A stretch of DNA of 64,000 nucleotides. Origin: Heterodontus francisci. Taxonomy: Eukaryota. Made by a program: the position numbers and the translations under genes. Positions 22,219 through 61,549 of this stretch are shown piece by piece. The stretch's first letter is position 1. Each line of letters begins with the position of its first letter. Location of the stretch: assembly GCF_036365525.1 (NCBI RefSeq), contig NC_090392.1, positions 72,370,345 through 72,434,344 of the forward strand. The letters run 5' to 3'. Below the pieces are notes generated by a model. It saw only the letters and a list, made by a program, of their open reading frames with translations, had not been told where the DNA came from and searched no databases.

Positions 22219-22261
22219 ATGAAGATATTTGCAGTTACTTTGGTACTCCTTGTGGTCAAAG
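22219..22261 (+). CDS. Apolipoprotein-like gene 2 (231 aa), signal-peptide exon MKIFAVTLVLLVVKG
   Basis: TTCACAG acceptor ending at 22195, CATCATG, 43 coding nt, G|GTAAAA phase-1 donor. Confidence 0.9.
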
Positions 22262-31008: not shown

Positions 31009-31290
31009 CTGTGTCCTTTTATGTATTTGCATCACTCAAGGAGTGGGAAAAGCAGAGCAATGAATCGATAATAGCATTGAATAATCAGATGGTATTGCTG
31101 CATTTAAGGGGGGCTTGCTGCATATTTGAGGGAGAAGGGAATGAAGGTTATGGGGATGGGTGGGAGGCGTCTCATGTGGAGTATAAGTACTGGCAGAGAG
31201 TTCCGAATGACTTTTTTTAGTGCTGCAGATTCTATGTAAATCTATGTAAAATATGAAAACTTTGCTACATCCTTTTCTCCCCCTCCAAAG

Positions 31291-31789
31291 GGCAAACCTA
31301 TCAGGTGTGAATAAAGTTCTCAATGACGTTATCGAAAATTCAATGAATGATCTTGCCACATTGTCAAACCAACTCAAGTGGAATGGCGTCCCCATCACTA
31401 CTCATATTTTAAACAAGACCGAACTTTGGAATGAGAAGCTAAACTCTGCTGGCCAACAAATACAAGAAGCGGTTGGCAATGAAACGTCTGTCGCCATTCA
31501 CATGAAACTGATGCAGATCCAGAAAGAGATCAATCAGTACACTCAGAACCTGAGCCTCATAGCTGAACGTTTCAATCAGACATATGAAAGTGCCACTCAA
31601 CAATTGGAAGAATGGAACAAGAGAGCCTCTCCTTACACTGATGCAGTCCGTACAAAAATAACTGAACAGGTTCAAGAACTGAGGAACTATCTTACACCTG
31701 TGATTCATGAGAGCAAGGAGGCATTCAAAAAATTAGAAGACCTGGTAATGAAATCAAATGAAGCACCGGTGGACACAGATGCACCTTAA
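31291..31789 (+). CDS. Gene 2, last coding exon (amphipathic helical apolipoprotein-like domain)
   Basis: Pyrimidine tract + CCAAAG acceptor in frame with ORF 31253-31789; SPYTDAVRTKI and LTPVIHESKE apolipoprotein-type proline repeats; spliced CDS 696 nt. Confidence 0.9.
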
Positions 31790-34700
31790 GCGAATCCTTG
31801 ATGGGTTCCAACACCAATGAGGTTAATTAAGGATAGAGAATATAAATTAAACTTCAAACCAATCATAATGTAACCAGCCCCCATTCTGTATTGGTATTCA
31901 TAATTAATATAAACGTATTCCAGTTACTGTGGCATAAAATGGCATGAACTAAGTAGTTTTTAAAAAAAAATTAAAACCAAAATTTTTCAGTGAATGAATG
32001 GCCTCATTGACACTTCCTGGTGGCCCCCTGGATGTTTGTTTTACCTGTAATATCATAACACAGACAATCCATTCAGCCAATCTGATGATGTCATATTATT
32101 CCCCCAATCAAATTAAATCACAAAAACTATGAATCTGGAACCAATGACATATGAGTAGACTAATAACAAAATCTTAGTAACTAATAATATTAAAGCAGGA
32201 TCTTACCTGTCCTTGGATTTTGTCTGTAATTGGATGTTCAAGCAGCTCGGGCTTTTGAAGTGATGCAGCAGGCAGGGGAAACATAAGAACATCAGAAATA
32301 GGAGCAGGAGTAGACGATATGGCCCATCGAACCTGCTCTGCCATTCAATGCGATCATTGGCTTCAACTCCACTTTCTTGGCCACGCCCCATATCCCTTGA
32401 TTCCCTGAGAGACCAAAAATTTGTCTATCTCAGCTTTAAATAAACAATGGAGCATCCACAACCCTCTGGGGTAGAGAATCCAAAGATTCACAACCCTTTG
32501 AGTGAAGAAATTTCTCCTCATCGCAGTCCTCAATGATCGGCCTTTACCCTGAGACTGTGCCACCGTGTTGACTCATCAAACCCTTCTGTACAGAGATCAG
32601 AAAATATAGAGTACACTGGCTGCAAAGGCACAGAGGGGGAGTAGCTGAAATGCACCAGTAGTTATTGCCCCTTCTTACAGAGTGGGCAATATAAAGACAC
32701 AGTCAGACAGGCAAATGGCAGCTTACAGTAGTGTCCTCTCGAGCCTGAAAGATAAAGATAACTCACTGAATGATAAACGTTTGTCCGAAATTCCCATCAG
32801 ATGATAGAAATGAAAATATGTAACAACTTGAGATGCCGAGACTTTGGTAACTGCATTTATGTGTTAACATTAATAGGAATGTTGAATTCTTGCAATATCA
32901 TTAAATGTCACAAATTGATTTTGAATGTGCTCAATAGCTTATATACTGTATTCATTGTATTACACTAGAATAAAAAAAGAAAGGCTTATATTTGTATAGT
33001 GTCTTACATGACATCCCAAAGCTCTTGACAGCTAATTACATACTTCTTTCAAGTGTAGTTGCTGTTGTATTGTAAGAAATGCAGCAGCCAATTTGCACAC
33101 AGCAAGCTTCCACAAACAGCAATTTGATAATGAGCAGATAATCCGTTTTTGTGATGTTGATTTAGGGATAAATATTGCGCCAGGACACCAGGGATAACTA
33201 AAAACAAAATACTGCAGATGCTGGAAATCTGAAATAAAAACAGAAAGTGCTGGAAATGCACAGCAGGTCTGGCAGCATCTGTGGAGAGAGAAGCAGGTCT
33301 GTGACCTTTCATCAGAACTCTCTTCTTCGAAATAGTGCCCTTGGATCTTTAACATCCACCTGAGGGGGATGACAGGGCCTTGGTTTAATGTCTCATTGGA
33401 ACGATGGCACCTCTGACAGTGCAGCACTCCCTTAGTACTAAACTGGAGCGTCAGCCTTGATTGCAGAAGTTGAACCCAGAACCAACTGACTTAGGGGTGA
33501 GAGTGCATGGTTGACACACTTACATGCAAATCCTCCAAAATTCTGCTACCTGTATCCTAATTCACACCAATTCCCGTTCATCCCCCCCACCCCTCCCCCC
33601 CCCCCACCCCCCCCTCCACCCCACCGTGCTCACTGAGCTTCATTCGCTCCCCGTCAGGGAACATGCCAATTTTAAAATTCTCGGGCCGAATTTTACCCAT
33701 GAAGGCGGGAAAAAGTCGGGAATGTGTTCGGATGCTGAACCCACCTTTGGTGGGAAACTGATTAAAATCAACATTTTCACATGGGTGAGCCCTTAATTGG
33801 CTTGGAGATGGGTTCCCTGTCCAACTAAGGGCAGTGGGCAGGCTTCCAAAACTGGAGGGTGATTCAGAGGCCTTCCAGCTTCAGAGAAATACCCTGCTGC
33901 AGCACGAGGTAAATAACTGGGAGGGTGCTTCAACAAGGAGGTGCCTCTCAGCCACTTTCATAAAATCTTTAATAAAAAAAAAAATACAAAAAGCAGCCAG
34001 GCCACCACTGTGAAGGGGGCTTGGTGCTGGGGGTAGGAGGAGCCCCTCTACAGAGTGGGCTTTGGCTGTACACCCCTCTTAGCCAGGCAGGGAGGGCCTG
34101 TAGGTCTGCCAGGAGTGCTGGCACCCCAGCCTGCTGCTGGATGCCCACCTCGAGGCAGCTGAACTGCCCCCATCGCAGTGGGAAATTGGAGGCTGAGCGG
34201 AAAATCACAGTCGGCCTCCGTTACCGACCTTTAACAAAGCTCCTAGCAGCCCAATTCCCTGCCTGCCTTGGTGGGGCAGGTGGCCTTCCCGGACCTTGAA
34301 ACCACGTCGGCCAAAATGACCGATGTTGGGAATGGGCTTGGGAAGCCAGCACACTGACCAGCCTTGTAATTGTCAGACCCCGTCTGCCTCTATTACCAGC
34401 GTCAGATGGGCCTGAAAATTCAACCCCTCTTTGTTTTCACATCCCTCCATGGCCTCACACCTTCCTAACACTGCAACCTTCTGCCCGACAACCTTCCACG
34501 ATCCCTGCGCTTCTCCAATTTTGGCCTCTGGAGCATTGGTAATTTAAATCACTCCACCATTGGCGGCTGTGCCTTCAACTGCCTGGGCACTAAGCTCTGG
34601 AATTCCCTCCCTAAACCTCTTTGTCTCTTTCTCTCCCCTTTTTAAGATGCCACTTAAAACCAAGCTCTTTGGCCAAGCTTTTGGTCATCTGTCCACATGT

Positions 34701-35343: not shown

Positions 35344-36709
35344 GTAAGAAATGTATCAGGATTAATCAACAGTAAGGAAAATAGTTAAAAAGCAGCAGTT
35401 TTCTTTGGTGGTGTACCTCACCTCCTCACTCTTCTCCTATAGTCAATAGTATTAAAAAACTGAAGCTTCAACAGCACCTTCCAAACCCGCGACCTTTAAC
35501 AGCTAGAAAAAAAAGGGAAGCAGGCACCTGGGGACACCACCAGCTACAAATTCCCCTGCAAGTTGCACACCATCCTAGCTTGGAACTATATCGCCGTTCT
35601 TTCATCGTCACTGGGTCAAAATCCTGAGAGCTCGCTCCCTATAATTCCACTGTGGGAGTACCTTCACCACACGGAGAGCAAAAGTTTAAGAAGGCAGCTC
35701 ACCACCACCTTCTCAAGGACACTAATGGATGGGTGGTAAAAGCTGACCTTGCCAGTGAAGCTCAAATTCCGTAAACGAGTAATAAAAACAAACCCAATCA
35801 CTGTTTTTTAAAGGATCCTCCTTTAGAAAAATGTTTTTACACAGCCAAATGCAAGCCAAAAATCTGTTTATTTTCCTTTATACCAGTAGCGGAAAAGCAT
35901 CTGTTTGGCACTAATTTGATTTCTTTCACACTTCACTCAAGACATTCTCATGCGAAGCAGTGCTGGCAAGACCCCGTGAAGAACTGCAGGACTGCCAAGC
36001 TCACGGAGTATGACAGGAGAAGAGGAAGATGAAGTGACATCTTCTCAGGATTTTCATATATTCTCCCATTCCAACTCAAAGATTTGATGATGTGAAAGAG
36101 AGTAAGCAATTCTTGGCAACTACTATCTTGTCAGACATGTGTACAAGCTTCCAGCACAATTGACTCTCTCACTCAAAGATCACATAAACTGGCCAGAAGC
36201 CACTTGAACATTCATCGTGTGACATCCCTTCCGGTTGAGAAATGCAGTAGAATTAATGTGTGGAGCCCTGATGGTCATATGGGTTCCATGTCTTAACTCT
36301 TGGAAGCCTGACAGCTGGTGAAAGCTCCGTGTTGTCGCCGGTTGGTGTCTCCTTACCGCAGGGGAAGTGGTAACAGTGGTTCTGGCAAACATGGTGCCAG
36401 CCACTTCCTTTATGATTGCAGATGGCTTATCTGACTGATTCTGTTGGGTTGGCTGAGAAGGAAATGTGTTGCATTGGGGTTTAAGGCCATTGGGATCCTC
36501 ACCCTCATCGAAAGAACCATCTCAGCCCTTGGAAGTATTTGCAGGTTAGCACACAGCAAGTGGCATAGCTCATTCACTGCCCCTTCCATGAACTGGGGGT
36601 GACAAATAAAAGGTTCCTCTGATATACCCAGGTAGAAGTGACGTGATCTGCCAATGTAAGTCCTTGGGTATTGATAGGAGCACACTTCTTGCGTGAGGTG
36701 ACATTAAGT

Positions 36710-41099: not shown

Positions 41100-42218
41100 T
41101 TGTACTTCGATTTCCAGAAGGCATTTGATAAGGTGTCACATCAAAGGTTTTTGCAGAAAATGAAAGCTCATGGTGTGGGGGTAACATTTTGGCATGGATA
41201 GAAGATTGGCGAGCTAACAGGAAACAGAGAGTAGGCATAAATGGGTCATTTTCTGGTTGGAAGATGTAACGAGTGGTGTGTCACAGGAATCAGTGCTGGG
41301 GCCTCGACCTTTTACAATTTATATAAATGATTTGGATGAAGATAGGTAGGAAAATAAGTTGTGAAGAGGGCATAAGGAGGGTACAAAGAGATATAGATTG
41401 GTTAAGTGGGTGGGCAAAGATCTGGCAAATGGAGTACAATGTGGGAAAATGTGAAATTGTCCATTTTGGCAGGAAGAATAAAAAAGAACCATATTATCTC
41501 AATGGTGAGAGGTTGCAGAGTTCTGAGATGCAGAGGGATCTGGGTGTCCTAGTACATGAATCGCAGAAGGCTAGTATGCGGGTACAGCACCTAATTGGGA
41601 AAGCTAATACAATGTTATCATTTATTGTGAGGGGAATTGAATACAGAAATAGGTAGGTTATGTTTCAGTTATACAGGGCATTGGTGAGATCACATCTGGA
41701 GTACTGTGTACAGTATTGATCTCCTTCTTTAAGTAAGGTTATAAATGTGTTGGAAGCAGTTCAGAGAAGACTTCCTGGATTAATACCTGGAATGGGTGGG
41801 TTGTCTTATGAGGAAAGGTTGAACAGGCTAGGCTTATAGTTGCTGGAGTTTGGAAGAGTAAGAGGCGACTTGATTGAAACATACTAGATCCTGGATGCTG
41901 AAAGCATATTTCCCCTTGTGGGAGAATCTAGAACTGGGGGTCACTGTTTAACATTTAAGACAGAGATGAGCAGAAATTTTTTCTCTCAGAGGGCCATGTG
42001 TCTTTGGAACTCTCTTCCTCAAAAGGTGATGGAAGCAGAGTCTTTGAATATTTTTAAGGCTGAGGTAGATAGATTCTTGATAAGTAATTGGGTGAAAGGT
42101 AATCAGGAGTCGGCAGAAATGTAGAGTTGAGGTTACAATCAGATCAGCCATGATCTCATTGGCGGAGCAGGCTTGAAGGGCCGAGTGGCCTACTCCTGTT
42201 ACTAGTTTGTATGTTCGT
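41100..42218 (+). mobile_element. 5'-truncated CR1 LINE
   Basis: WQMEYNVGKCEIVHFG and LWNSLPQ fragments. Confidence 0.9.
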
Positions 42219-43749
42219 AATCATGCTGACTTGGTAAAACTCTTATGACAGAGTCTGGAAACAATGGAAGATTACACAATTACCATGCTCTGCACAGTAC
42301 TCTGACCATTCCTTTTCCTTTGGATATACCTAAGTGGAGAACGGAGCACATGAACATGAAGACAATTGCTACTAGTTAGCTAATGTCAAGCATAGGTTTT
42401 AAGGATCTATATATTGTACAGGATATGGGGAGAGTTGGGAGAGAAACTGATGGAAGACGTGGGTTCAGAGTTAGGGCTTGTGTGCGAGGGAAGAGGAAGC
42501 AGCAGAGGGAGCTCGACCTATGGTATCAATCTTGGTTACAAAGAAGTCCATTATTGGAGGTGAGGGGGTGGGGCACAGAGGGTAAAGGAGTCAGGTGGGA
42601 GTGGAGGAAAGAAGGCAGAGATTATTTTGATGTCCAGAATGATTCTGGAGTAGTGGGCAGTTTTTGTGAAGGCGAGGCCAACTAGTGCTTGATATGGTCC
42701 AGCCACATCTGATGATGGATGGCTAAACCAGTTGTGCACCAGATACGCTCAACTCTGCTTCCCTTAGACCTGAGTGAGTGAAGATGGGGACCATACCGTG
42801 GAACGAGTGGACTGGGGGAAAGTGAAGGTTTTACCGGGGAACAAGAGATCAGACATGGAAGCAAGGGAATGGTTCAACTCCGCACAGATCAGGGATGGAA
42901 CCTGGAGCTGTTTTTCAGTAAGGTTTAGTACCTACTGACCATTCGAAGTGTTCCTCCATCTTACAATCTTAAACATTCTGTGTATTTTCAAGTGTGCTCC
43001 TCAATGTCAGTAATAATTTTAATATTGTATTTGTGTCTGTAAAGCACATTTATGAGACACAGCTTGTTGTTACTAATGAACACGATAACCATGACAGAGA
43101 AACCCTATGTCAATATAATTGAGGATTAACCACATCGTCACACTTTTCATCCATTAACCACTTAGCCAGAAATGTAAATCCTACCATATGTGATCTAAAA
43201 TCAACCTGCATCTACTCCCGCAGCAGATTGAATTGCACTATTGCACTTGGAGGTAATTTTAACCTAAACCCCTGCACCCCTCGCAGGAAACTGATGGATC
43301 ATTTGAACGCTGTTTTTACAAACTGCCCTGATTTTCATGTGCATGAAAGTCAGTTGAAAGCAAAATCGGACGGGGAGTAAAAACAGGATCCGACTTGAAA
43401 CAGTCAGATTCCTTCCGGACAGAATAAGTTAAAATTACCCCATAATATTCATTTTATCTGTTCCAAAGACACAGGCTACATGAAGGAGAAAACAAATTGC
43501 AGGGATATCGGGAAGGAACGGGAGAGTGGGACTTTGCTCTTTGAAACAGCTGGCACAGACGCAATGGGCTGAATGTCTGTACTATTCTATGTTTCTAGGA
43601 TGTGACCTGATGTAATGTGGTGATATAGCATGACTCCAATCAATTCCACTTGTCCTGCTTAGGGGCTGTACTGTTTTAACTTTATTATTGAGAACGGGAG
43701 TTTTCAGAAGTCTTCACTCCAACTTTACTTTGGATTTACTTCTCTCAAG

Positions 43750-43996
43750 GACAGGGCTGTTTGCAGCAAATTTACAGTCAGCCACAGATATAATTGTCCA
43801 CAGTGGTAACTAGCTTACTGTTTAATTAGATTAGAGAGACATGGAACTGGTAAATTTGTTCTGTTTGCCAGAAGCAAACACGGAGAGGTCAAAAATCTTG
43901 ATAATTGATTCTACGTTTCCATCAAGTTAATAAACCTCAGAAATTTGAGGATCAGAAAGCAGCCGCACTGTGGGCAGGAGGACTAATTTGACCCAG
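43750..43996 (+). promoter_or_regulatory. Putative promoter and non-coding exon 1 of gene 3 (lacks the paired-GATA cassette)
   Basis: Homologous to 18740-19051 with a 65-bp deletion; donor CAG|GTAAGA after 43996. Confidence 0.6.
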
Positions 43997-44423
43997 GTAA
44001 GAGATGCTTCTTCAGTTTCCCGAGATTTCAACAGCAGTGCATGAAAACCAGTAAAATTACAAGAATATGTTCTTCAGTGACAGTTCAATGAAAAACTTTT
44101 TGATATCCAATTTTGTTCAGGTCCCCAAATGGCTGTGTGGTTAAGTTCCCAATATGGCATTGAGCCACATAGGCTGGGAGTTAAATTGATTTAATTTATG
44201 CCCAAATGTAAAAGGACTGAGTGCTAATCCGCTGAATCACATAGACCTAATGCTGAGCACTTTCTCATCCAGATACTGCAGCAATATATAAATATGCTTG
44301 TATATGTTTTTGTTGGAATTATTGTCACCAAGCATTAATACATTTATTGGTGTTAGGCATGAAAAGGAGCAACCTTTAGACATCAGTTAAAAAATTATAT
44401 TTCCCTACATTTAATATTAGTAA

Positions 44424-45599
44424 CTAGCAGAGACCCGCAAAACATTTGTGGTCAAATCAGTACCTTTATTGCAATTGCACTTCTTTAAATACAGGATTTC
44501 TAGTTATTCTTTCACCAAAAACTTCAACAGAATCAAAACTTCTCACTCTGTAAAAAGCTCCATGAAGCTGTCCATGTGTAAAAACACACCTCGGAATAGA
44601 AATACAAATTTTGTCAAGCGTCCGGCCTTGTCACTTATTTATAGTCAAGGAATATGAAAATCTAATTGGGAAATATTTTCTCTTGAGTTGAAAAGGCGGG
44701 TTTACATCTGCTGGGCTCAATATTATTTGAGGAATAAACAGTTTATTTCCTCGAAATCTGCCTGTTACAATTTCAGCATCTAACATTAAAGAAAAGAGTT
44801 TCCTAACTACCAGTCTTGTTCCATTACAAAGTCCTTGTTTAGGATTCAAGTTTTGTAGCAACATTAAAACTGCTGCTTCCTTGAGACTATGTTTGTGTGG
44901 TGGTATGCCCATTGGAGTTAGACCATGCAGAAACTCTGGAGGGTACAGACTGTTATCATCTTCTTTGTCTATAGAATCAACACTGATGTATTCTGTTAAT
45001 TCATCTGACAGCTTTTCATTCAAATCTGGGGAATCTTCATTTTTAGCACAAAGAATAGCTTTCAAATAATAAGTTGTACCAAATAATTGTCCCTGCCGTT
45101 TTGCCACACTTAACCAATTCCATCATCTTATTCACCCCTCCCATGCCACCCCCATGCTATCCCCTCCCTCCAATGACATCCCCATCCCCATCCCATGCCA
45201 TTCCATCTTTCCCATGCCATCCCTCTCATGCCATCCACATCCCATTTCTTCTATCTCTTTCATGTCATCCCCATCGGGCTCTTTCCATCCCCATCCATCT
45301 CATCAATCCCATCCTATCCCTCATGGAACCAATCTCTCCAGCCCGGGTGTTTTTGCTGTTGGGTTCCTGTTACTATCCGCTGTTTTTATTCTCCACCAAA
45401 CTCCCCCACCCTGCTGCTGCCACCGCCACCAGCCATTGGCTGCCACACGTGCATCACGCACTCCAGTCCTCCACTTGCCCCTTGTGCCTCTGCATGCACC
45501 AGGCACCGTCCACCGAATAAACCCACCAACAGAGTGCTCTTTAAACTGACCAATCAAAACAGTCCAGACAGACAAAAACAAAAATATTATTATTATAGA
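44424..45599 (-). mobile_element. Non-autonomous Helitron carrying a PIF1-like helicase fragment
   Basis: Minus strand: 5' TCTATAATAATAA, 3' hairpin GACCACAAA..TTTGCGGGTC then CTAG, inserted between A and T; ORF 44631-45107 has GLCNGTRL and FPIRFSYSLTINK; empty site in copy A (~20660). Confidence 0.92.
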
Positions 45600-46510
45600 T
45601 TGCAGAAAATGAATGGGTTAATTGTAGATTTTTTTTATATTTAAAAGCCGGCTGTATGTATTCTTTTTACAATAATTCTTGTGTCATTATCTATGGCCTG
45701 TACAACAGACACAGTTTCATTAAAAATGACTGTTGTTGAGAGGGTTCTAATGTGCAGTGACGAATGTCCAATGAAAAGAGACAAAATAACTTCCTGACAA
45801 TTTGAGAAGGTTTGAAGTGATCACACTAGAACCATCCCCCTGATTTGGGGGCAGAGTGGAAGTTTCATGAGACACGAGCATTTTTGGAAGAAGAGAAGAC
45901 CAGCAGGAATTTGAAAGATTAGCAGCTTATTCACCTCAATAGATGATGGTAGGCAGTTCTAGGGAGTGAACACCTTTCCCAAAGTATTCTCACCCAGTGT
46001 CAGCTACATGCATCCAGTTCAGTACAGAACCGTAAACTGCACAAAATATCCTTTTACTCTGCTCCAGTCTTGGGAAAAACACTCTCTCCTGTTTTAGTGT
46101 GAATATTTCCACTTCTCACACCAGTCTATCCCATGGCCTGTCTGAAGAAGATTGCTAATTTTTGTCCGACCTTCAAACTCCTAGGAAGAGGAGCACTATC
46201 CAGGTAGTCTACATCCATACTGATCAGTTGCAAATAGTAGACCTTGTAGAGTTATTACTGACTAGAACTGAAGAGCAGTTAGGTTAATAGGTTAAACTAA
46301 TGATATGACACAAGGTAAAAATTGTGACGAAGAAGGGAAGCCATTTATCCGCAGCCCAATAGAACTGTGGAATAAGTTACCATGAAAAGACTTGAAAATA
46401 GGGGAGATGCTTTTGGTACATTGGGTTGTCGTCTAGTAGCTGGTAGGCTACCTCTTTCACATAAAAACCGAATAACCAACAGAGAGGAACAGAGAGCAAG
46501 ACTTTCACAT

Positions 46511-46903
46511 TAAAGCATGGCTACCCGACCTGAACCCAACCAGACCCGAAGACATTTGTTGGGTTCGGGTCAGGTCGGGTCTCTTTTCCGGGTCCGGCAT
46601 TCGGGCTCTGGTCAGCTCGGGCTGGACACGGACACGGTGCTGCCTTGCTCAGGGAGGGAAGTATTCTTCAAAATTTGAACATTCAGCCGGGACATCAAGA
46701 CGGGGATCGTGCTGCCAGAGTGGAGGATCACAACATTTGGAAAAGGTAGAGCACAATAACCTGTTTAATTTAATTAACTTTATTACAATAGTCGGGTCGG
46801 GTCAGGTCGGGCTCGGGAAAAAAATCAATGGACTCGGGCCTGGGTCGGGTCGGGTTGGATGTGGTCGGGTCGGGTTTCAATTTCACACCCGGGTGGGCCT
46901 TTA
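46511..46903. mobile_element. hAT-like MITE with CCCGA/TCGGG subterminal repeats
   Basis: TAAAG...CTTTA ends, 8-bp TSD-like TTTCACAT / TTTCATAC, empty site in copy A (~21577). Confidence 0.75.
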
Positions 46904-47594
46904 TTTCATACTATCAGTCCAGGGTAGATTTGGACTCAAATTCTACAGTAAGCAGTCAGTCGCATTTACTCAAACTCAAATGAAGGAAATAGGTAAAAAT
47001 AGGGAAAAATTCCAAAAAGATGTCAGAAACTCTAAATATTATTAATGCGTTCATGTATTTTTACCTATTTGCATTCTCTAAATTTTTTTTAAAATTGGGA
47101 GTCCAAGGAACAATGGTGGAGGCTGACAGCAAGCGTTACAAGGTTAAACAAAAGAAATTGGGGATTAGGTGAGACCACGCTTGAGTTTTATAAGCCTGAT
47201 TGCAGGAAGAGGCAAAGACTTGGGAAAGAGGAAGTTCCACAGTTTTGCTGTGCTGCGAAAGAAATATCTGGAAAAATTAAAAGGGTGAGCAGAAAAGTAA
47301 ACATTAAAATTGATTATAAGAATGAGATGGCAGGGAGAATAGAAATGGGTCTGTCAACTACCCAGGATCTGGGAAAATCTTATCTTCCATCAGACACCTA
47401 TGAGTTACTCCAGTGACTTGAACAAACCAAACTATAATCTTCACTACTTATCTAATTCTATATTTACTTTGTATGTTTGGTAATGAATTGTATGGATGAT
47501 AATGAGCTCTCTATTCCGTAAATTGTTGTAAATATAATGATTATATACATTTAATTCTCTAGCCTTCACAGTGGTTTGAGGACCGGACACCATC

Positions 47595-47637
47595 ATGAAG
47601 ATATTTGCAGTTACTTTGGTACTCCTTGTGGTCAAAG
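47595..47637 (+). CDS. Apolipoprotein-like gene 3 (213 aa), signal-peptide exon MKIFAVTLVLLVVK (identical to gene 2)
   Basis: Acceptor ending at 47571, 43 coding nt, G|GTAAAA donor. Confidence 0.9.
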
Positions 47638-49096
47638 GTAAAAAACAAAAACTCTTCAAACTAACACAAAACACAATGAACATTGAAAAGAAAACAATAC
47701 TGTAGAAAATCACAGCAATATACAATATATAACATTGACACTTTCAGTTTGTAGCTTCCATTGCCTGTGTAGTGCAGGGAGCACATGGCACTATAGATAA
47801 GAACATATGCAATGCAGTACATTACAACAACTATGTCCTAGATTGCTGAGTAGCAGAATGCAAGCTCAATTCTTCCATAGATGAGGTACATTAGTGCTGG
47901 GATCAAACATTTCTCCACATTTTGCACTATATATCAGCATTCGGCAATCCCACCTCAGCACAGAGTGAGCCAGATGCAAACTTAAGCTACCTACAATCTA
48001 CCCCCATGCATTCATCAGGATGAAGGACATTAGTGCTGGAGAATGGAGCACATTCCTTTCAATTATCCATTGAGTTTATGATTGAAGCTGTATTGCTAAA
48101 TGGGATGAATTCAATGGAAGCATCTCTCTATAGGAGGAGCAGAAAGTGAACAAAGGCCCTTCCTCAAGCACATCTTGGTGCAGCCAGCTTAAAATGGCCT
48201 TGGTAAGATTATGGAAACCAGGGTCACCTAACATGTGACCCAGTTGGACTGGAGGTGATGTCAAATGATCTACTGCTAGACCACACTCTGTGGGCCAAGA
48301 CAATGCCATGGCTTTGATTGACATCTATAGATATAAACAAACACATTAAGAGGAAAATGTTATAAATTACTGATTTTTTCCCCCCCAAATTGGTTATTTT
48401 TATGAAATGGACCAGAATTAAAGCAAATCTCTTTAACGTGGGTCTTCAATTCTTCTTCATGTAAGGGCATCTTCAAAATGAATTGCCGTGGGATTCATTT
48501 TTGATGCTGCTGTGAGGGAATGCTGCCTTGTCCTTTAGATAAGACATTAGACTGACACCCTGGCTATTTGGGTAGTGCAAGATCCCAGGACAGTATCCAA
48601 AGAAAGGCTGCAAGTTTTTCCAGTGTCCTGGCCAACAGTTCTCCCTCCAGCATGCTTCTTCAAAACATTCATTCTTCATTCGTTCTCCTCATTGCTGTTT
48701 TTGGGATCTTGCTGTGCACAGCATGGCTGCCTCAAAGTAATTAGCTGCATGTGAAGGGCTTTGTGATGTTTTGATGAGGTGAACATGCTTGTTTATTATG
48801 TTTGATGTTAGAAATGTGTGACTAGCACTTGGGTCACAACACTTGATCCGAGTAACCCTGGGCAAGGGAGAGCAAGAGCTTCTGCTCCTCATTGCTATAC
48901 AGCACCCTCGGCTGCAAGGTGTGTCTATGGACATCAACCTGTCCTACAGCAAGGATCATGTCTTCAGGAGAGGAGACTGAGGGAAAAAATACACAAATTA
49001 ATAATGGCATCAGGGAGGTAGGTACTCATACCATCTTTATAATAATCATGCATAAAAAGAAGCACTAATCAGTTTTTTTTCTATGTTCTTGCCCAG

Positions 49097-49250
49097 TAAT
49101 CCAGGGTGGTGTCATCCCTCGGGATGAATCCATATCCAACAAATCTATACACTTGCAGCTAAACTATCTGAAGTTATTAGAAAAAGGATTTGATGCAGCT
49201 GGAGTTGTTCTTAGTGCCATTGCACAGACTGAGGTGGCCAAATCAGCTTT
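49097..49250 (+). CDS. Gene 3, coding exon 2 (IQGGVIPRDESISNKSIHLQLNYLKLLEKGFDAAGVVLSAIAQTEVAKSA)
   Basis: CCCAG acceptor, 154-nt open exon of the same length as in gene 2, TT|GTAAGT donor. Confidence 0.9.
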
Positions 49251-51253
49251 GTAAGTAGTTAACTACCAGCTATTAAAACTATCAAGCTATTTTCAAGTAG
49301 TTCTACCTTTGTCTCCTTCTTTTAAAATGCTCTTTAAAACCTACATCTTTGACCAAGGGGTACCTGTCCCAATATGAACTTATATGGCTCGGTATCAATT
49401 TTTCTTTGATAATGCTCCTGTGAAGCAACTTGTGACATTTAACTAATGTAAAGGCAGGATATAAATGCAAGTTGCCCTGTTTGTTATAATTGTAATTTAA
49501 GTCAGTTGGGGGATTCTTTTTTATTCATTCTGTGGATGTGGGCGTCGCTGGCCAGGCCAGCATTTATTGCCCATCCCTAAGTGCCCTTGAGAAGGTGGTG
49601 GTGAGCTGCCTTCTTGAATCATTGCAGTCCTTGGGGTGGAGGTGCACCAACAGTGCTGTTACACAAGTGGGCTGATTCCCCACTCATGTGGAACACGAGG
49701 CAGGAGATCATGCCCTCCGTAGCTTTGGAAGCTTCCCAACTGGCCAGATCAGGACAACAAGCAGCTGATCCCACTGAATTGACACGCAAATTCTAAACTT
49801 AGACAGTGCAGGTCCACAGAACACATTCTGTCAGTCATCAAAGACCAGCTATACGAGGGACCTCCAGTAGCGTCATTTAAAGGGCCAACCATCCAACTTG
49901 CAAAAAAGTATATTTAGACTGAGTTCTGTGGTTGTAAACTTTGTGGACATACTGTGGAGTGTTTTTGGGAGTGTTGCGATGAGTTACTGGATGTGGCATG
50001 GAAGGCCAAGCCTCCGACAGGTACGGGGGCTGCAGTTGCAGTGCTACTGGGTCTGTTTCCCAAATGGCCAGATCTGGCTGATTTGATGCGCAAATTCCAA
50101 ATGTGGACTGCATTCTCTGGTCACTCATCAAAGAACATACATTTGGCTACAAGAGGGAGTATCAGACCAAGTGACGGGGCCTCTTCATCTTCCTCCTTGG
50201 GCAGCTGTGGCTGGGCAGGTGGCATTAGTTGGGTGTGTGAAAGTAGAAAGTAGAAAATCAGAAAAGAGAGGTCGGAGCTGTGTGTGAGGCTGGCATCATT
50301 GGAATGTGTGTGAGGGTGAGGTGGAATATCTGAACGTTAGGCCTGAGTCCTGAGTGCTAGGGCTGCTGATGGTTGAGTGATAGGAGTGTGATACATTGGA
50401 CAGTGGAAGATGTTGAAGGTGCGATGGGTAGGAGATGTCCTTTGAAGATGCATTCACTGACCTGGACCACACGCATGAATTCAGGGAACGTATTGCGGCA
50501 CTGCTGTGAGCTCCTCGGGGCTAGACTCCGGGCAATGATCTCCATGGCCACCTGCTCTCATTTCCTTCTGAGGGTTTACCATGAGGGACTGCGGCTCCCT
50601 CGCAGAAACATCACCTCTCGACCTTCAGCACCAAGGAGCCCTCTCTCTTCTCTGGTGCTCCATTTGTCCAGCTCCTACATGCAGCCAGTGTCAGTGCAGG
50701 CAGTCAGCAGCAGCTCACAGTTGCCCTTTAAGAGAGGCAGACTGCCTTTAAAAGGAGCAGGCTGGCTGCACCACCTGCTATTAGTGCACGCTGCTCAGCC
50801 TCCTGCTGAGTGCGTTGGCAGCCAGCCACCTGAGTCTCATTCAGACCAATCAGGTAAATGAGGAGTCAGCACCAAGTTTGCGTGCTACCTGCCTCAATGG
50901 GAACGGGCTTGGGTGGGTCATGAATCACAACCCACTTGTCCAAAACCAGGTGGGGAACCATTTTTAGCTCTGGGTCCTTTTGTGTATTTGCATCACTCAA
51001 GGAGTGGGAAAAGCAGAGCAATGAATAGATAATAGCATTGAATAATCAGATGGTTTTGCTGCATTTAAGGGAGGCTTGCTGCATATTTGAGGGAGAAGGG
51101 AATAAAGGGTATGGGGCAGGGTGGGAGGCGTCTCGTGCGGAGTATAAACACTGGCATAGAGTTCCGAAAGACTTGTTTCAGTGCTGTAGATTCTATGCAA
51201 GTTTATGTAAATTGTCCAGACTTTGTAATATCTTTTTTTTTCCCTCTACAAAG

Positions 51254-51698
51254 GACGTACCTACCAGGTATTTCTAAATTTCACGGTGTACTCATTGGCA
51301 AACCAGTGCACGAGCTATCATTATTGACACAAGAACTCAAGTGGAAGGGGATCCCCATCAGAAATTATATTTCTAACCAGACCAGGATAATCTATGTTGC
51401 TGAACAGTTACATGAAATGATGGGCAAAGAAATGTCTGCTGCACTTATTCCGAAGCTGGATCAGGTCCGCCATGGTCTCCAGCATTACAGTAGGAACCTG
51501 AGCCTCATAGCTAATCGTTTTGATCAGACATTCAAGGGTGTTGCTCACAAATTGGAGAAATGGTACAAGAGGTCCACTCCTTACACTGACAAAATATATC
51601 AACTATTTCAAAAACTGAGCAACTACCTTCAACCTGCATTTCATAAGACCAAGGAAGGATTGAAAAAATTGTTAACTAAATGGAGTGAAGCAACATGA
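51254..51698 (+). CDS. Gene 3, last coding exon (cationic amphipathic apolipoprotein-like domain)
   Basis: CAAAG acceptor in frame with ORF 51087-51698; aligns to gene 2 (LKW.G.PI, NLSLIA.RF.QT, PYTD, L.NYL.P); spliced CDS 642 nt. Confidence 0.9.
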
Positions 51699-54479
51699 GC
51701 TGTGCCTTAAAATTATGCTTGATGGGCTCTGACACCAATGACGCTAATTAGGGCCAGAGAATATAAATTAAACTTCAAACCAATCATAATGTAACCAGCC
51801 CCCATTCTATATTGGTATTCATAATTAACATAAACATTTCAGTTACTGTGGCATAAAATGGCATGAACTAAATAGTAATTTTTTTATTTTTAAAACCAAC
51901 ATCATTTTTCAGTGAATGAATGGCCTCATTGACACTTCCTGGTGGCCCCCTGGATGTATGTTTTACCTGTAATATCATAACACAGACAATCCATTCAGCC
52001 AATCTGATGATGTCATATTATTCCCCCAATCAAATTAAATCACAAAAGCTATGAATCTGGAACCAATGACATATGAGTAGACTAATAACAAAATCTTAGT
52101 AACTAATAATATTAAAGCAGGATCTTACCTGTCCTTGGATTTTGTCTGTAATTGGATGTTCAAGCAGCTCGGGCTTTTGAAGTGATGCAGCAGGCAGGGG
52201 AAACATAAGAACATCAGAAATAGGAGCAGGAGTAGACGATATGGCCCATCGAACCTGCTCTGCCATTCAATGCGATCATTGGCTTCAACTCCACTTTCTT
52301 GGCCACGCCCCATATCCCTTGATTCCCTGAGAGACCAAACATTTGTCTATCTCAGCTTTAAATAAACAATGGAGCATCCACAACCCTCTGGGGTAGAGAA
52401 TTCCAAAGATTCACAACCCTTTGAGTGAAGAAATTTCTCCTCATCGCAGTCCTCAATGATTGGCCTTTACCCTGAGACTGTGCCACCGTGTTGACTCATC
52501 AAACCCTTCTGTACAGAGATCAGAAAATATAGAGTACACTGGCTGCAAAGGCACAGAGGGGGAGTAGCTGAAATGCAACAGTAGTTATTGCCCTTTCTTA
52601 ATAATCCCATCAAATGATAGAAACAAGTCCACAGCCAACTGGAATAGGATGCATGATATATTCTACTTTTAATCCTCTCTGTCTGTGTATGATTTGGAAA
52701 AATATTTACAAAATGCTGGGGCCATAGAAATACGTTCAACAGATCCAATTATCTCACTCATTCTTGATAAATCATATCCCCAACATTGTTCTCTCTGAAA
52801 ATATGCAACAACTTGAGATGCTTATTAGTAATTGCACTTATGTGTTAACATTAATAGGAATGTTGAATTATTTTCACATCATTAAAGGTTGCAAATGGAT
52901 TTTGAATGTGCTCAATAGCTTATATAGTGTATTCATCATATTACACAGAATAAAAGTGACATACTCAGAAGCAGTGTCATTTGTCCTAAGTATCTTAGCT
53001 GTTGATTAAAAGTAAGTGTTTAATGGGCCTGGGCTGCTGCATGGATAAATACACTATACAATGTGTGGTTCAGTTTAATAAGACAGTTAGCCTCAGCACC
53101 CTTGGTCACTTCCCATGATTTTTGCTCTATGTCATCAAGACCGCCCACTTCCACCCTCTACTCTGTCGCTGCCTCAGCTTATTTGCTACTGCAACCCTCA
53201 TCCTTTGTTACCTCAATGGTACCTCCCGCCTTCCACCCCCCCATAAACAGGACAAAGCAGCCCATTTGATCAGCACCCCATCCATCACTCCCTCCAGCAC
53301 TGACACACAGTGGCAGCAGTGTGTACCATCAACTGCACTGCAGCAACTCACCAAGGCTCCTTCGACAGCACCTTCCAATCCCGCGACGACTTTCACCTAG
53401 AAGGACAAGGGCAGCAAAGGCATGGGAACACCACCACCTGCCAGTTCCCCTCCCAAGTCCCACACCATCCTGACTTGGAACTATATCGCTGTTCCTTCAC
53501 TATCGCCATATCAAATTCCAGGAACACCCTCCCTAATAGCACTGTGGGTGTACCCACACCAGATGGACTGCTACAGTTCAGGAAGGCAGCTCCCCACCAC
53601 CTTCTCAAGGGCAATTTGAGATGGGCAACAAATGTGGGCCTTCCCAGTGACAAACACATCCCACAAAACAAATAAAAAAAACCTTGAGCTCATCCAAAAC
53701 TCTGCTGCCTTAATCCTAACTCACACCAATTACTGTTCACCCATCACCCCTGTGTTTGCTGACCTACATTGGCTCCCACTCAGGCAATGCCTCAATTTTA
53801 AATTCTCATCCTTGTCCTGCTACCTTCTTATGTAGCTCAGTGTTAAATTGTGTTTGATAATGCTCCTGTGAAGTACCTTGCGACCTTTTAGTTTGTTAAA
53901 GGCACCAAATAAATGCAAGCTGTTGAGGTTGAACAAGAACACTATTGGGTTTATGTGTGAGACCCTCCATGACCAGATAGTTTGCAGTGTATAGGCCCAC
54001 ATTAATGGTGGTCATTTTCTTTTCATTTGTGGGATGGTCATCACTGGCAAGGCCACCATTTATTGCCCATCCCTAATTGGCCTTGAACTGAGTGGCTTGC
54101 TAGGCCATTTAAGAGTCAACCACATTGCTGTAGAGTCACATGTAGGCCAGACCAGGTAAGGATGGCAGATTTCCTTCCACATTAGTGAACCAAATGGGTT
54201 TTTACAACAATCGACTAATTTCAGATTTATTAATTGAATTCAAATTTCACCATCTTCTGTGGTGGGATTCAAACCCATGTCTCCAGAACATTAGCTTGGG
54301 CTCTGTATTACTAGTCCAGTGACATTACCACTACACCACCGCCTCCCATTTGGGTCACATACTGATGATCTGTTTGTAGCCTTATCCTCCTCCAACCAAA
54401 TCCAATCCCAACATTCTTCTCGGGCACCACATTGGGATCAGGAAAATTCCTGCTATGGACTTAATTCATGAGTCCAAGG

Positions 54480-57649: not shown

Positions 57650-57853
57650 GTATGTCACAAAAACATTTTTTGATGCCAGCTTTGGGTTAGTGGTAGCACT
57701 GTTGCTTGAGTCAGAAGTTTATAGGTTCAAGTCCCACTTTAGAGACTGCAGTTTTCTAATAGTCTTCTGGATAGGGTAATGGAGATGAACACCCTGGAAT
57801 CACTCAAGAGGCAATTAGAATTGGTAATATGGGTGGAATGAGAAGCTTTTTTA

Positions 57854-58095
57854 TGTTGTCTGATGCAACATAAATGAGATTGTGGAATTCAGGTGGCTGA
57901 AGATCTCAAACAGGTTTATTAAACAGCTAACAACTATATGCAGTACCGAGCTATCTAATTGCAGGTATTGCCTCTTGGTGTTGCAGTTACAGAGAAAGAG
58001 ACTGGCACGTAGTTACATGACTACATCTTGGCACTTGGCTCATTAGCATACTAAGATCTTAAAGGTACATTACTCTTACTGGCAATCGCACAACA
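57854..58095 (-). mobile_element. 3' LTR (~242 bp) of the myc-carrying retroelement
   Basis: TGTTGT...ACAACA inverted termini, AATAAA on the minus strand, directly preceded on the minus strand by PPT GGAAAGAAGGGGGA (58096-58109). Confidence 0.85.
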
Positions 58096-58169
58096 TCCCC
58101 CTTCTTTCCAAAGATAAGTCTCGTATGCTAAAAGCAAAATACACTAAATTAGATAACATCAAAAATTAT

Positions 58170-58672
58170 TTACACATGGCTAGAGATTATCAACTTTACA
58201 AATAGAGCCTCAGAAGTCCATAGGTCGTCTTGGTGGTTTGACAACTCTTGCTCAGGGACATTGCGTCTCAACTGTTGCTGTTCCTTCTCAAGTTTCTCCC
58301 TCTCTGCATTCAGTTTCTGTTTCTCTGCCTTCTGCCTACTAACATAGTCTGTTGCTTTTCTCAAGATGATCACTTTTGGGGTCTTGTCATTCTTAGAAAG
58401 TTCCAGCACCTCACCTCAAAGAGCTAACAGACAATGCTTCAACTCATTCCTCCTCTGCCTCGTCAGGCCATTGTGTGTCCTTTGCCTCTCTTCATCCTCT
58501 ATATTGGAAGGCTTGGGGCTCAAGGTCGAGGACTTGTTGGGGAAGAGTACTTGGTCTCATGGAGATACCTGTCCATTCTGGCTCGTTGTGGTGCTGGCGG
58601 TTCTCTATAGAGCAGAAGTGAAGACGCAACATAGTTGTGCTGTTGCTTGGTTTCCAGGCTGCACCATTTGAT
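58170..58672 (-). pseudogene. Retroelement-captured MYC-family C-terminal fragment (Myc box IV, NLS-like segment, bHLH-leucine zipper), with one frameshift and one stop
   Basis: IKWCSLETKQQHNYVASS..PPAPQRARMD / [85 protein letters not shown] versus c-Myc [73 protein letters not shown]. Confidence 0.92.
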
Positions 58673-60911
58673 GCTGGTCGGAGTCTGTGTGCGGATTCCA
58701 GTCCTTGGAGATCTCCCCTTGCCAATGCTCTCATGGATTGTTATGATGTTGAGGCCCTAACATGCTGGTAGTCCTACCATTGCTGGTCTGCTCGTGTCTA
58801 CTATGTAGAATGTTTGTGGTTTCTATGCCAACTTACTATATTTGCATTGCAGTGTTAATGTGCCACTGCACGGGATGGGTGACCCATTATATGCAGATAG
58901 CTTGGCAGTCATCGGTTGTATCATTGATTTCCAACAAATCCAGTATATATCTTTGAGGTGTCAGTCTGGTACAATATTTGCACTAGTGCTGGTGTCAGTC
59001 TTGTCCTTGAGTGTGTGTTTGCCAGCTTTCTTTGGGCACGTAATGGTGATAGTTGTAAAAACTTCCAGTTGCTTGAATTCATCAACATGGTGTGTCAGGT
59101 TCACAATGTGGATTGCTTGCTCGTCTTCTGACTGAGACTTGCTCCGACCTGAGTCTTGTCTCAGGTCTGTTTTGCTGTGGACTTCGTGTATTGGCTTGCA
59201 TGTATGCAAGTCTCTGGCCCTTTCCTTGCTGCTATTGCATCGTTGATGCACCTGTCTTCTGTCGGTTCGTGTGCGACTGTTACTTCTGGCTGCCTTTGGA
59301 GCCAGAATTCCTGCACAGGTGGGCCCAGTGTCCTTTTGCACCACATGTCCTGCACAAGTCTCAAAATGTAGGGCAATTTCGTCATGAGTGGGACCAGCCA
59401 TATTTGCCACACAGCTTGTTTGCTCTTTTCAACCTGGTTATTGTGTCGATACTGTTGGCTGCACCTAGTGCTTGCTGGTGCTGTTGTCCAGCTAGGATAG
59501 CTTCGTATTTCCTGCCATCTTCCAGCAGTGCATCAATGCTGTGACCTTTCTTTTTCCCCAAGAGGTCTTTCTGGAACGCTTCAATGGGTGTTGATGCAAA
59601 ACTGGGTGGGAGGGTGAGTTATAAGGAGGATGCAGAGAGGCTTTAGGGTGATTTGGACAAGTTGAGTGAGTGGGCTAATGCATCGCAGATGCAGTATAAT
59701 GTGGATAAATGTGAGGTTATCCACTTTGGTAGCAAAAACAGGAAGGCAGATTATTATCTGAACAGCTATAAACTGAGAGAGGGGAAAATGCAGCGAGACC
59801 TGGGTGTTCTCGTACACCAGTTGCTGAAGGTAAGCATGCAGGTGCAACAGGCGGTAAAAAAAGCAAATGGTATGTTGGCCTTCATAGCGAGAGGATTTGA
59901 GTACAGGAGCAGGGATATCTTGCTGCAATTTTACAGGGCCTTGGTGGGACCACACCTGGAATATTGTGTACAGTTTTGGTCTCCTTATCAGAGGAAGGAT
60001 GTTCTTGCTATAGATGGAATGCAGCGAAGGTTTACCAGACTGATTCCTGGGATGGTGGGACTGACGTATGAGGAGAGATTGAGTCGGTTAGGATTATATT
60101 CGCTGGAGTTCAGAAGAGTGAGGGGGGATATCATAGAAACCTATAAAATTCTAACAAGACTTGACAGGGTAGATGCAGGAAGGATGTTCCCAATGGTGGG
60201 AGAGTCCAGAACCAGGGGTCATAGTCTAAGGATACGGGGTATACCTTTCAGGACTGAGCTGAGGAGAAATTTCTTCACCCAGAGAGTGGTGAGCCTGTGG
60301 AATTCGCTACCACAGAAAGCAGTTGAGGCCAAAACATTGTATGTTTTCAAGAAGGAGTTAGATATAGCTGTTGGGTCTAAAAGGATCAAAGGGTATGGGG
60401 CGAAAGTGGGAACAGGCTACTGAGTTGGATGATCAGCCATGATCATAATGAATGACAGAGCAGGCTTGAAGGACCGAATGGCCTATTCCTACTCCTATTT
60501 TCTATGTTTCTATGATACAATCATCAGCTCCATTATTCGGCCTGACAGTTCAGCTTCTGAGAAATCACATTTGTTGCCCTTACTGACGAGCTGGTCTATT
60601 GATTCCTGTGGCTGTTGCCTGTAGGACATCAATTCCAGGTGGTGAATTTGAAAATTCACTCTCAATCGGAGCTGATCTTTCAGCACTTTCCATATCTTAG
60701 AGGGGTCTTTCTGGACCTGTTCAGATATTCCAGAGGTATTGATTCTGTACAATCCCTCATTTCCTATTGCTATCACAATTTTTACAGCTTGCTTCTCTGG
60801 TTCTACCGTCACATGGTCTGTGAAGTATAACTGCATTCTTTGTTTGAACAGTTGAAACCCAGATAGGATATCCAAGGCTTTCTAGCTCATGCTGGGAAAA
60901 TTGGAGTCCAT
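58673..60911 (-). mobile_element. Decayed Gypsy-type gag (CCHC zinc knuckle) and aspartic protease of the myc-carrying LTR element, interrupted by a CR1 insertion
   Basis: MDSNFPSM..FQLFKQRMQLYF..RQQPQESIDQ gag; CRTCGAKGHWAHLC knuckle (~59310-59355); KTDTSTSANIVP protease site (DTGASAN-like); LSAYNGSPIPCSGT...VGLPAC*GLNII. Confidence 0.88.
59596..60516 (+). mobile_element. 5'-truncated CR1 LINE nested in the gag of the myc-carrying element
   Basis: 256-aa RT C-terminal ORF 59653-60423, (TTTCTATG) tail; removing it with one TGAT copy restores gag ELMIVS|TPIE. Confidence 0.93.
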
Positions 60912-61549
60912 CTTTCTGCTGTCCTTTCGCTTTAAATCTTGCTTTAAGAACTTGCTTTAAGACTCTTTAAGAAACTTTCTTGGCTGCTTTTATTGACAGC
61001 AGCAGCTTGTCTGTTTGTCTTGTTTCCAGCACTAAGCCTGTTTATTTACACAGCAGTGTCATTTTTTTGTTAGTTTGTTTATACAGCTGTTCAAGAGGCA
61101 ATTCTTTATTCTTGAGTGGTTTTATGAGTTTATTTTAACAGGCTGAGTGAATGAAAAGTCTTGACGGTTGAGTGGTTTTAATGGGTTTCTATTTATAGGT
61201 CTTGCAGGGAGCTGTGTGAGTGAAGGATTCCTGTGCTTTTCACTGTTGGGCAGCTCTAGGAATGGCACGGCCCTGCTTAGCTCAGGAAAGGGATTGGGTC
61301 TTCCCCAAATTTTTGGTTTCTCAGGGAGCCTTTGAGAGACAAAAGAAATCAATCTTTTAAGGACTTCAAGGCTTCTCTCCTTGTTTAAAACGGGAGTTCC
61401 TGTACCGATGGCAGACTGACTCATCTGATCACAGTGATTGATTTGCAGCATGTTGTTCAGGTTTTCTGGTAGGTTTTAAAAAACAGAAGATCAATTGTTT
61501 TTCAATCAAGATGCTTCATCCTCAAATTGTTGCAACAACATCCAATCAA

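What the first reader, a model, noticed from the sequence alone, without database searches (positions are those of the whole stretch)
57854..60911. LTR retrotransposon that captured a MYC oncogene C-terminus as a gag-protease-myc fusion
Seen in sequence, minus strand, in order: gag ATG at 60911, CCHC knuckle, aspartic protease (DTSTSAN...VGLPAC*GLNII), then in the same frame as the protease IKWCSLETKQQHNYVASS (Myc box IV, compare c-Myc [16 protein letters not shown]), PPAPQRARMD (compare the c-Myc NLS [9 protein letters not shown]), and, after a probable 1-bp loss in the GGGG run at ~58539-58542, a full Myc bHLH-leucine zipper. A PPT and a TG...CA 3' LTR follow within ~100 bp of the stop. RT, RNase H and integrase are missing. 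Established knowledge: this is the layout of defective acutely transforming retroviruses such as avian MC29 (gag-myc). Inference: a non-autonomous Gypsy family transduced a host myc mRNA segment and may have spread with it. I am not aware of such an element being described in sharks. This copy is decayed, with several stops and frameshifts and a CR1 insertion, and its 5' LTR is not visible.
Basis: partly seen in the sequence, partly recalled or inferred. Interest (0 to 1): 0.95.

Follow-up and report, generated by a model that had tools for sequence, protein, structure and literature searches.

The report
Retrotransposon carrying a captured Myc fragment
An old shark retrotransposon swapped its replication enzymes for the back half of a host Myc-family mRNA and then spread to at least several hundred places in the genome, but the captured piece lacks the gene-activating half and a key DNA-reading residue, so it resembles a cancer-virus capture in layout rather than in function.

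Summary
Confirmed and extended. The window holds a decayed copy of a Gypsy-type LTR family in which RT, RNase H and the integrase core are replaced by Myc sequence. The donor is the host's mych paralog (88% DNA identity; 69% to the MYC-like gene), not c-Myc. Longer family members carry the end of exon 2 joined to exon 3 at the exact splice site, so the capture came from spliced mRNA. Both capture junctions sit at 7- and 6-nt microhomologies with the pol of a parent family that keeps RT-RH-IN, in frame. At least 630 copies exist (exact 24-mer), probably 1,500-3,000, from an old star-like burst. Other copies have paired LTRs, a tRNA-Leu primer site and 5-bp target duplications. The MC29 analogy holds for layout only: the N-terminal transactivation half is single-copy and was not captured, and 591 of 630 copies carry Lys at the invariant E-box-reading Glu. 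No purifying selection on the Myc part was detected, whereas the protease shows it; 0 of 28 sampled copies is intact. Best reading: template-switch capture, amplified as a non-autonomous element with a disarmed Myc passenger. A selected dominant-negative role is not excluded.

The parts
60912..61460 (-). 5' leader of the element; its 5' end (PBS, 5' LTR) is missing in this copy
   Evidence: 72-79% identity to the leader of other copies up to about 61460; no second LTR in the window or 9,956 bp beyond
60513..60911 (-). gag, 5' part (ATG at 60911; one stop)
   Evidence: 43-50% identity to the N-terminus of Gypsy gag-pol relatives
59596..60512 (+). CR1-type LINE fragment inserted into gag, private to this copy, with a 4-bp duplication
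   Evidence: skipped by all other copies that span it; ends read; the CR1 label rests on the look of the 258-aa frame and recall
59284..59595 (-). gag, 3' part with CCHC knuckle at 59354-59313
58731..59128 (-). aspartic protease, decayed (three stops; active-site motif reads DTS where relatives have DTG/DSG)
   Evidence: 80% DNA identity to the protease of a pol-bearing parent copy
58261..58730 (-). captured mych exon-3 segment: Myc box IV, NLS-like stretch, bHLH-Zip; one frame break and one stop in this copy
   Evidence: 88% DNA identity over 471 nt to host gene L059
58170..58260 (-). remnant of the integrase 3' tail of the parent pol
   Evidence: RVVKPPRRPMDF-stop at 58248-58210 matches the pol tail of parent and long-form copies
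58096..58115 (-). polypurine tract
   Evidence: same place in 19 of 19 extended copies
57834..58095 (-). 3' LTR, 262 bp, TG...CA
   Evidence: paired 5' LTR placeable in 13 of 19 extended copies

Best explanation
A single-ORF Gypsy (Mag/SURL-like) LTR retrotransposon co-packaged the host's spliced mych mRNA (inferred). Reverse transcriptase switched onto it at a 7-nt microhomology just inside RT and back at a 6-nt microhomology in the integrase tail (junctions shown; switching inferred). This replaced RT-RH-IN core, in frame, with the last 191 nt of exon 2 plus most of exon 3 (shown). The chimera kept LTRs, PBS, PPT, gag and protease and was copied by pol-bearing relatives in trans (relatives shown; trans-mobilisation inferred). 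Nested deletions then gave the short gag-pro-myc form seen in the window (shown). The family burst to hundreds or thousands of copies long ago and has decayed since (shown for sampled copies). The Myc piece lacks the transactivation half and lost the E-box-reading Glu early. It most likely rode along as a disarmed in-frame passenger while selection acted on gag-protease (inferred).
For: Donor: 88% vs 69% and 76% over short stretches for the other two host myc genes; 12 element rows plus host mych form one clade, support 95/97. mRNA origin: the exact exon2/exon3 join without the 1.7-kb intron in 6 of 7 long-form copies. Microhomologies of 7 and 6 nt; chance per random switch point 0.0006 and 0.002; Tan et al. 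report a median of 6 bp for this mechanism (PMC5131818, passages). Amplification: 591 + 39 non-host exact 24-mer matches, 0 in the reversed control; 2,846 first-look candidates, the 40 scored on 22 contigs. True insertions: 5-bp TSD at 4/5 or better in 8 of 13 two-LTR copies. Parent with RVT_1, RT_RNaseH and Integrase_H2C2, 2,160 candidates. Protease-myc junction in phase in 27 of 28 short copies. Near-fixed changes: protease N17:S15 differs from the neutral rare class (p 0.012), myc N9:S6 does not (p 0.38); net between-form dN/dS 0.23 vs 0.50. Near-invariant Myc columns were lost at 5 of 38 vs 7 of 118 variable ones.
Against: No family-wide stop or frameshift was seen in 156 Myc codons and three junctions keep the frame, which could mean the fusion protein mattered. 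The selection tests rest on few internal changes (15 near-fixed in myc), mix in host-lineage changes and have low power. Two of three base-contact residues changed in the short form (hypergeometric p 0.016, post hoc), which looks targeted rather than neutral. The one parent copy read in full shares only 72-75% LTR identity with the short form, so the actual helper is not identified. Samples are the best-scoring 30 and 7 copies, not random.
Confidence: 0.62

Rival explanations
1. Same capture and spread, but the Myc piece was useful to the element: released from the polyprotein by the element's protease, it bound Max without reading E-boxes and acted as a dominant-negative Myc in germ cells or embryos, favouring transposition or transmission.
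For: Frame kept at three junctions. Glu-to-Lys in 591 of 630 copies, in both long and short forms and in 7 of 7 annotated element proteins. In the bHLH factor E47 the same basic-region Glu-to-Lys change was the strongest dominant negative of all substitutions tested (PMC11286708, passages; equivalence of the position is established bHLH knowledge, recalled). Box IV, NLS-like stretch and zipper are kept through both deletions.
Against: No purifying selection on near-invariant HLH/zipper columns; one near-invariant zipper column is lost in the short form. One early transition in a founder copy explains the Lys without selection. No expression or protein data.
Confidence: 0.25
2. Selection acted against Myc activity: the first chimera bound E-boxes and harmed the germ line, and only a disarmed variant could amplify. 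This differs from the best explanation only in that the Glu loss was required rather than incidental.
For: Only 39 of 630 copies carry the host Glu codon, about what back-mutation at 6-8% per site would give; a second base-contact residue changed in the short form.
Against: Cannot be separated from a founder effect with one capture event; one long-form copy with the full integrase tail (L058) has Glu.
Confidence: 0.1
3. An endogenised acutely transforming element, functionally like MC29 gag-myc, that drove proliferation of host cells.
For: Same layout: replication-defective, helper-dependent, in-frame gag fusion to an intronless myc segment.
Against: The 5' 351 nt of exon 2 is single-copy (1 of 1 candidate), so the transactivation half is absent; the TAD with MB0-MBII is N-terminal (PMC7780693, passages). 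DNA-contact Glu lost. No env seen between the tail and the PPT. It is a Gypsy retrotransposon, not a retrovirus.
Confidence: 0.02
4. A LINE-made processed pseudogene of myc inserted into a dead LTR element at this one locus.
For: The genome is rich in CR1 LINEs, and one sits inside this copy.
Against: Hundreds of dispersed copies share the junctions; pol is replaced, not interrupted; no TSD or poly(A) around the myc segment.
Confidence: 0.01

Closest known systems
LTR-mediated retroposition in animals (Tan et al. 2016, PMC5131818; abstract and passages read)
   Same: Part of the element's ORF replaced by a partial spliced mRNA, microhomology at both switch points, both LTRs kept, further spread as a non-autonomous element, often in frame.
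   Different: The passages read report 18 insertion sites for nine Drosophila retrocopies; here one capture reached at least 630 copies. The cargo is a Myc-family transcription factor; the word oncogene does not occur in that paper's main text.
Acutely transforming retroviruses with gag-myc, such as avian MC29 (recalled, no call)
   Same: Defective, helper-dependent, intronless myc fused in frame to gag-derived sequence in place of pol.
   Different: Gypsy retrotransposon in the germ line, no env; donor is mych; transactivation half absent; E-box Glu lost; amplified vertically and decayed.
Maize Bs1 and HERV-K/FAM8A1 chimeras (as cited in PMC5131818 passages)
   Same: Host mRNA fragments captured between LTRs.
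   Different: Different cargo; FAM8A1 is described there as a single case giving an untranscribed pseudogene.
Mag-lineage Gypsy elements (PMC3286476, table and passages read)
   Same: tRNA-Leu primer site, 5-bp TSD, short LTRs, single gag-pol ORF; the parent RT's best named relatives are echinoderm polyproteins of about 1,350 aa at 55-60% identity.
   Different: No RT tree with named Mag references was built; only one CCHC knuckle seen.
Dominant-negative bHLH proteins: Omomyc (PMC7780693 passages) and E47 E555K (PMC11286708 passages)
   Same: TAD-less Myc bHLH-Zip; Glu-to-Lys at the base-reading position.
   Different: Omomyc keeps DNA binding and has a changed zipper; no binding or expression was shown here.
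Rodent myc retrogenes such as marmot N-myc2 (name listed; biology recalled)
   Same: Intronless copy of a Myc-family gene.
   Different: Few copies, not carried inside an LTR element.

Membership tests
Ty3/Gypsy LTR retrotransposon | Paired LTRs with TG...CA ends, PBS, PPT and target-site duplication | tested here: met
   13 of 19 extended copies with two LTRs, 11 of those 13 with the TGG-initial PBS, 8 of 13 with 5-bp TSD at 4/5 or better; the window copy itself has only the 3' LTR
Ty3/Gypsy LTR retrotransposon | pol order protease-RT-RNase H-integrase, no env | tested here: met
   one parent copy read (L066-L068): RVT_1, RT_RNaseH, Integrase_H2C2 in that order, then tail and LTR
Mag lineage of Gypsy | PBS for tRNA-Leu or tRNA-Ser and 5-bp TSD | tested here: met
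   PBS complements a 3' end found 95 times in the genome; the one hit checked is tRNA-Leu(TAG); criteria from PMC3286476
Mag lineage of Gypsy | RT groups with Mag/SURL references in a tree | not tested
   no named Mag reference sequences were returned; only similarity ranking
LTR-mediated retrocopy (template-switch capture) | Cargo is spliced mRNA | tested here: met
   exon 2/exon 3 join without the intron in 6 of 7 long-form copies, the seventh damaged at the join
LTR-mediated retrocopy (template-switch capture) | Element ORF replaced, microhomology at both switch points, no TSD or poly(A) around cargo | tested here: met
   7 and 6 nt
Myc family (mych) | bHLH-Zip closer to Myc than to Max and grouping with mych | tested here: met
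Acutely transforming gag-myc retrovirus | Carries the Myc transactivation domain (boxes I-II) | tested here: not met
   5' half of exon 2 is single-copy; capture starts in the last 191 nt of exon 2
Acutely transforming gag-myc retrovirus | Intact E-box-binding basic region | tested here: not met
   Lys in 591, Glu in 39 non-host exact matches
Acutely transforming gag-myc retrovirus | Retroviral helper with env; transforms cells | not testable with these tools
   parent is Gypsy-type with no env seen; transformation cannot be tested here

The most novel reading that the evidence does not exclude
A vertebrate retrotransposon captured a Myc paralog and kept it as a protease-released, Max-binding, DNA-blind dominant negative that tuned host Myc signalling in the germ line and helped the family reach thousands of copies; one or more copies may still be expressed or domesticated in living species.
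Probability: 0.2. Interest if true: 0.9.

Novelty: new variant of a known kind. Interest (0 to 1): 0.72.

Why it matters
Oncogene capture is textbook for retroviruses in tumours. Here the same chemistry happened in a germ-line retrotransposon, with donor gene, parent element, both switch points and nested derivatives all preserved, and the product became a major repeat family. It gives a natural test of what happens to captured Myc when it must pass through the germ line: it ends up without its activating half and DNA-blind. With hundreds of copies, selection on cargo versus gag-protease is directly testable. It also warns that annotated extra 'myc-like' genes in this shark are element copies, which bears on claims about oncogene copy number in sharks.

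Tried and rejected
Pfam found no protease or gag family in the window frames (two of the three window frames given were off-frame and say nothing). A pattern count of the short junction gave no answer; a 101-nt junction query gave 1,329 first-look candidates, the 40 scored spanning it, but candidates are not junction-specific. One search was aimed wrongly (mostly upstream of exon 2); one search is the valid test. Motif-based frame linking across 19 copies was noisy and is not used beyond two natural stop-free frames. Pairwise dN/dS within copies (0.43-0.57) looks like selection but is a transition/CpG artefact: rare changes are neutral once these are separated. Sequencing runs: no RNA holder listed; runs guessed to be RNA cover the element but contigs cannot show transcription. 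Organism C (run X8) covers 30 of 30 bins, yet none of its 8 listed pieces bridges the junction by 31 letters. Absolute dating failed: half the LTR divergence (0.06) over the pedigree rate 7e-10 per generation (PMC10587355, passages) gives about 9e7 generations, hard to square with a capture after the split from other sharks, so only relative dating is given. Literature: searches listed no paper describing this element (listings only; two returned none); the library lacks most subscription papers, and repeat databases and supplements were not seen. The scan's own notes held nothing. No fold or complex job was sent, as a Myc-Max pair would pass by likeness. A fourth host gene of MYCL type was not among the 119 scored of 1,624 Myc_N candidates.

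Full report
OBSERVATION. The minus strand of 60911-57834 reads gag, a CR1-type insertion, the rest of gag with a CCHC knuckle, a protease, then Myc box IV-like and NLS-like peptides in the protease frame, a frame break at 58539-58542, a bHLH-Zip, a short pol tail, a PPT and a 262-bp LTR. The bHLH-Zip, read with X at its stop, matches Pfam HLH (E 2.8e-8) and solved Myc chains at E 3e-18 against Max at 3e-4. Gag and protease frames align to Gypsy gag-pol relatives at 30-50% identity. The LTR ends at 57834, not 57854. The 5' LTR and PBS of this copy are gone.

A FAMILY, NOT ONE LOCUS. The 531-nt myc segment gave 2,846 first-look candidates in the 6.0-Gb genome; the 40 scored lie on 22 contigs at 86-89% identity apart from the window itself. 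In the 30 fetched, the host match starts and ends at the same place within a few bases and runs on into the same tail; 28 of 30 have a mappable protease upstream and the junction is in phase in 27 of these 28. Two exact 24-nt patterns in the basic region match 591 and 40 places, one of the 40 being the host gene, with 0 in the reversed controls: at least 630 copies. 15 of my 37 mapped copies match these patterns exactly, which scales to about 1,550; the sample favours well-kept copies, so this is probably low. Of 19 copies extended upstream, 13 have a placeable 5' LTR; 11 of the 13 are followed by a TGG-initial PBS and 8 of 13 have a 5-bp target duplication at 4/5 or better, while 4- and 6-bp registers fit poorly. 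The PBS complements a tRNA 3' end found 95 times; the one checked is tRNA-Leu(TAG). LTR pairs differ by a median K2P of 0.12 (range 0.09-0.20; the highest values include misplaced ends). The DNA tree of 37 copies is star-like with median end branches of 0.077 (bootstrap not fully settled): an old burst.

DONOR. A Myc_N search found three intron-containing host genes among 119 scored candidates. The window segment is 88% identical over 471 nt to exon 3 of the gene on C16, and only 69% over 134 nt and 76% over 62 nt to the other two. That exon's product is identical to a protein that NCBI names 'myelocytomatosis oncogene homolog' of Heterodontus francisci, i.e. mych, listed as a fish-specific gene in PMC11457510 (passages). 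In a 31-row protein tree, 12 element rows and host mych form one clade (95/97) apart from mych of four other sharks and three rays, and the other host genes fall with MYC and MYCN. So the capture postdates the split from those sharks. The seven element-derived proteins among the 240 listed hits of two protein searches all bear that one species name and are annotated as myc-like or N-myc-like genes; absence from other sharks' annotations is weak evidence, since decayed copies are seldom annotated. Contigs bridging the short junction by at least 31 letters occur in runs of organism A (X5) and of a second organism B (X6, X11), so the family is not confined to one species label.

HOW IT WAS CAPTURED. 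Seven longer copies came from the Myc_N search. They carry up to the last 191 nt of exon 2 joined to exon 3; 6 of 7 show the exact splice join without the 1.7-kb intron. A query from the integrase tail led to relatives with integrase core upstream (3 of 3 fetched); one read further has protease, RT, RNase H and integrase, and its RT gave 2,160 candidates. Its best named relatives are echinoderm single-ORF polyproteins; natural stop-free frames in single copies span gag-knuckle-protease (L035) and protease-myc (L036). Parent pol and host exon 2 share GGATGCA at the 5' switch, and pol tail and exon 3 share CAAATT at the 3' switch, both in frame (P0124-P0126 read across the 5' join). Random switch points give such runs with probability 0.0006 and 0.002. 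This is the double template switch of Tan et al. (PMC5131818). Copies form a nested series: full capture with integrase tail (L058, L061, L062), 3' tail deletion (L056, L060), and an added 5' deletion that joins the protease end to exon 3 (the window's form). The shared 3' join and a shared substitution point to one capture; the DNA tree puts the two main lineages on either side of the host branch and cannot itself prove that. The parent copy read shares only 72-75% LTR identity with the short form, so the exact helper is open.

WHAT THE MYC PIECE COULD DO. The 5' 351 nt of exon 2 is single-copy: the N-terminal transactivation half (PMC7780693) was not taken. The basic-region Glu, invariant in 24 of 24 cellular Myc-family proteins, is kept in 1 of 30 short and 1 of 7 long copies, 0 of 7 annotated element proteins and 39 of 630 genome-wide matches; nearly all others have Lys. 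The neighbouring His is also mostly changed in the short form (kept in 6 of 30). That this Glu reads the E-box is established bHLH knowledge (recalled); in E47 the Glu-to-Lys change abolishes DNA binding and is the strongest dominant negative at that site (PMC11286708). An oncogenic gag-myc role is therefore very unlikely.

SELECTION. All sampled copies are decayed: 1 of 30 has a myc segment free of stops and frameshifts, and 0 of 28 is clean in both protease and myc. Rare changes are neutral in both regions. Near-fixed changes are depleted of amino-acid changes in the protease (N17:S15, p 0.012) but not significantly in myc (N9:S6, p 0.38); net between-form dN/dS is 0.23 and 0.50. Near-invariant Myc columns were not spared (5 of 38 lost vs 7 of 118, p 0.17). 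Against a pure passenger: frame is kept at three junctions, and 2 of 3 base-contact residues changed in the short form (p 0.016, post hoc). The tests are weak, with few internal changes and a biased sample.

VERDICT. Capture of spliced mych mRNA by a Gypsy element and large-scale amplification are shown (about 0.95). The function of the cargo is inferred: disarmed passenger 0.62, selected dominant negative 0.25, required disarming 0.10, transforming 0.02. The mechanism is known; the cargo and the scale were not found in print in searches (listings only; subscription papers, supplements and repeat databases not seen). New variant of a known kind; interest 0.72.

Noticed in passing
run X11 laid on window:58101-59249: One contig of depth about 2,000 covers the myc segment, with similar summed depth over the protease, while other listed pieces of that run are under 14. 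It may be one very abundant copy in organism B; the run type is unknown and contig depth is a poor measure.
   Followed up: no
P0008, P0123-P0128: Seven element copies are annotated as myc-like or N-myc-like protein-coding genes, inflating the apparent Myc gene count.
   Followed up: partly
G000:C34:18727276-19004144: Tandem array of about 84 tRNA-Leu 3'-end matches with a 3,050-bp period; one unit checked is tRNA-Leu(TAG).
   Followed up: partly
L067:820-1860: The parent RT, though decayed, is 55-64% identical to marine invertebrate or unnamed polyproteins and only about 50% to the two teleost hits; horizontal transfer is possible but untested.
   Followed up: no
window 17334-24520 vs 42218-49285; 30302-32677 vs 50271-52600; 13874-14533 vs 36049-36709: Blocks repeated at offsets of about 20-25 kb at 82-99% identity, suggesting a local segmental duplication or repeated mobile elements.
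   Followed up: no
L002 / L031 (G000:C22, about 190 kb from the window): The nearest-scoring copy lies on the same contig in opposite orientation, also lacks its 5' LTR and pairs with the window copy in the tree (91/91); possibly a local duplication.
   Followed up: partly
window 27341-25443, minus strand: A 633-codon stop-free frame, not examined.
   Followed up: no
L024, L026, L003, L017: Individual copies show an internal inversion, a duplication, a protease deletion and a displaced LTR piece.
   Followed up: no
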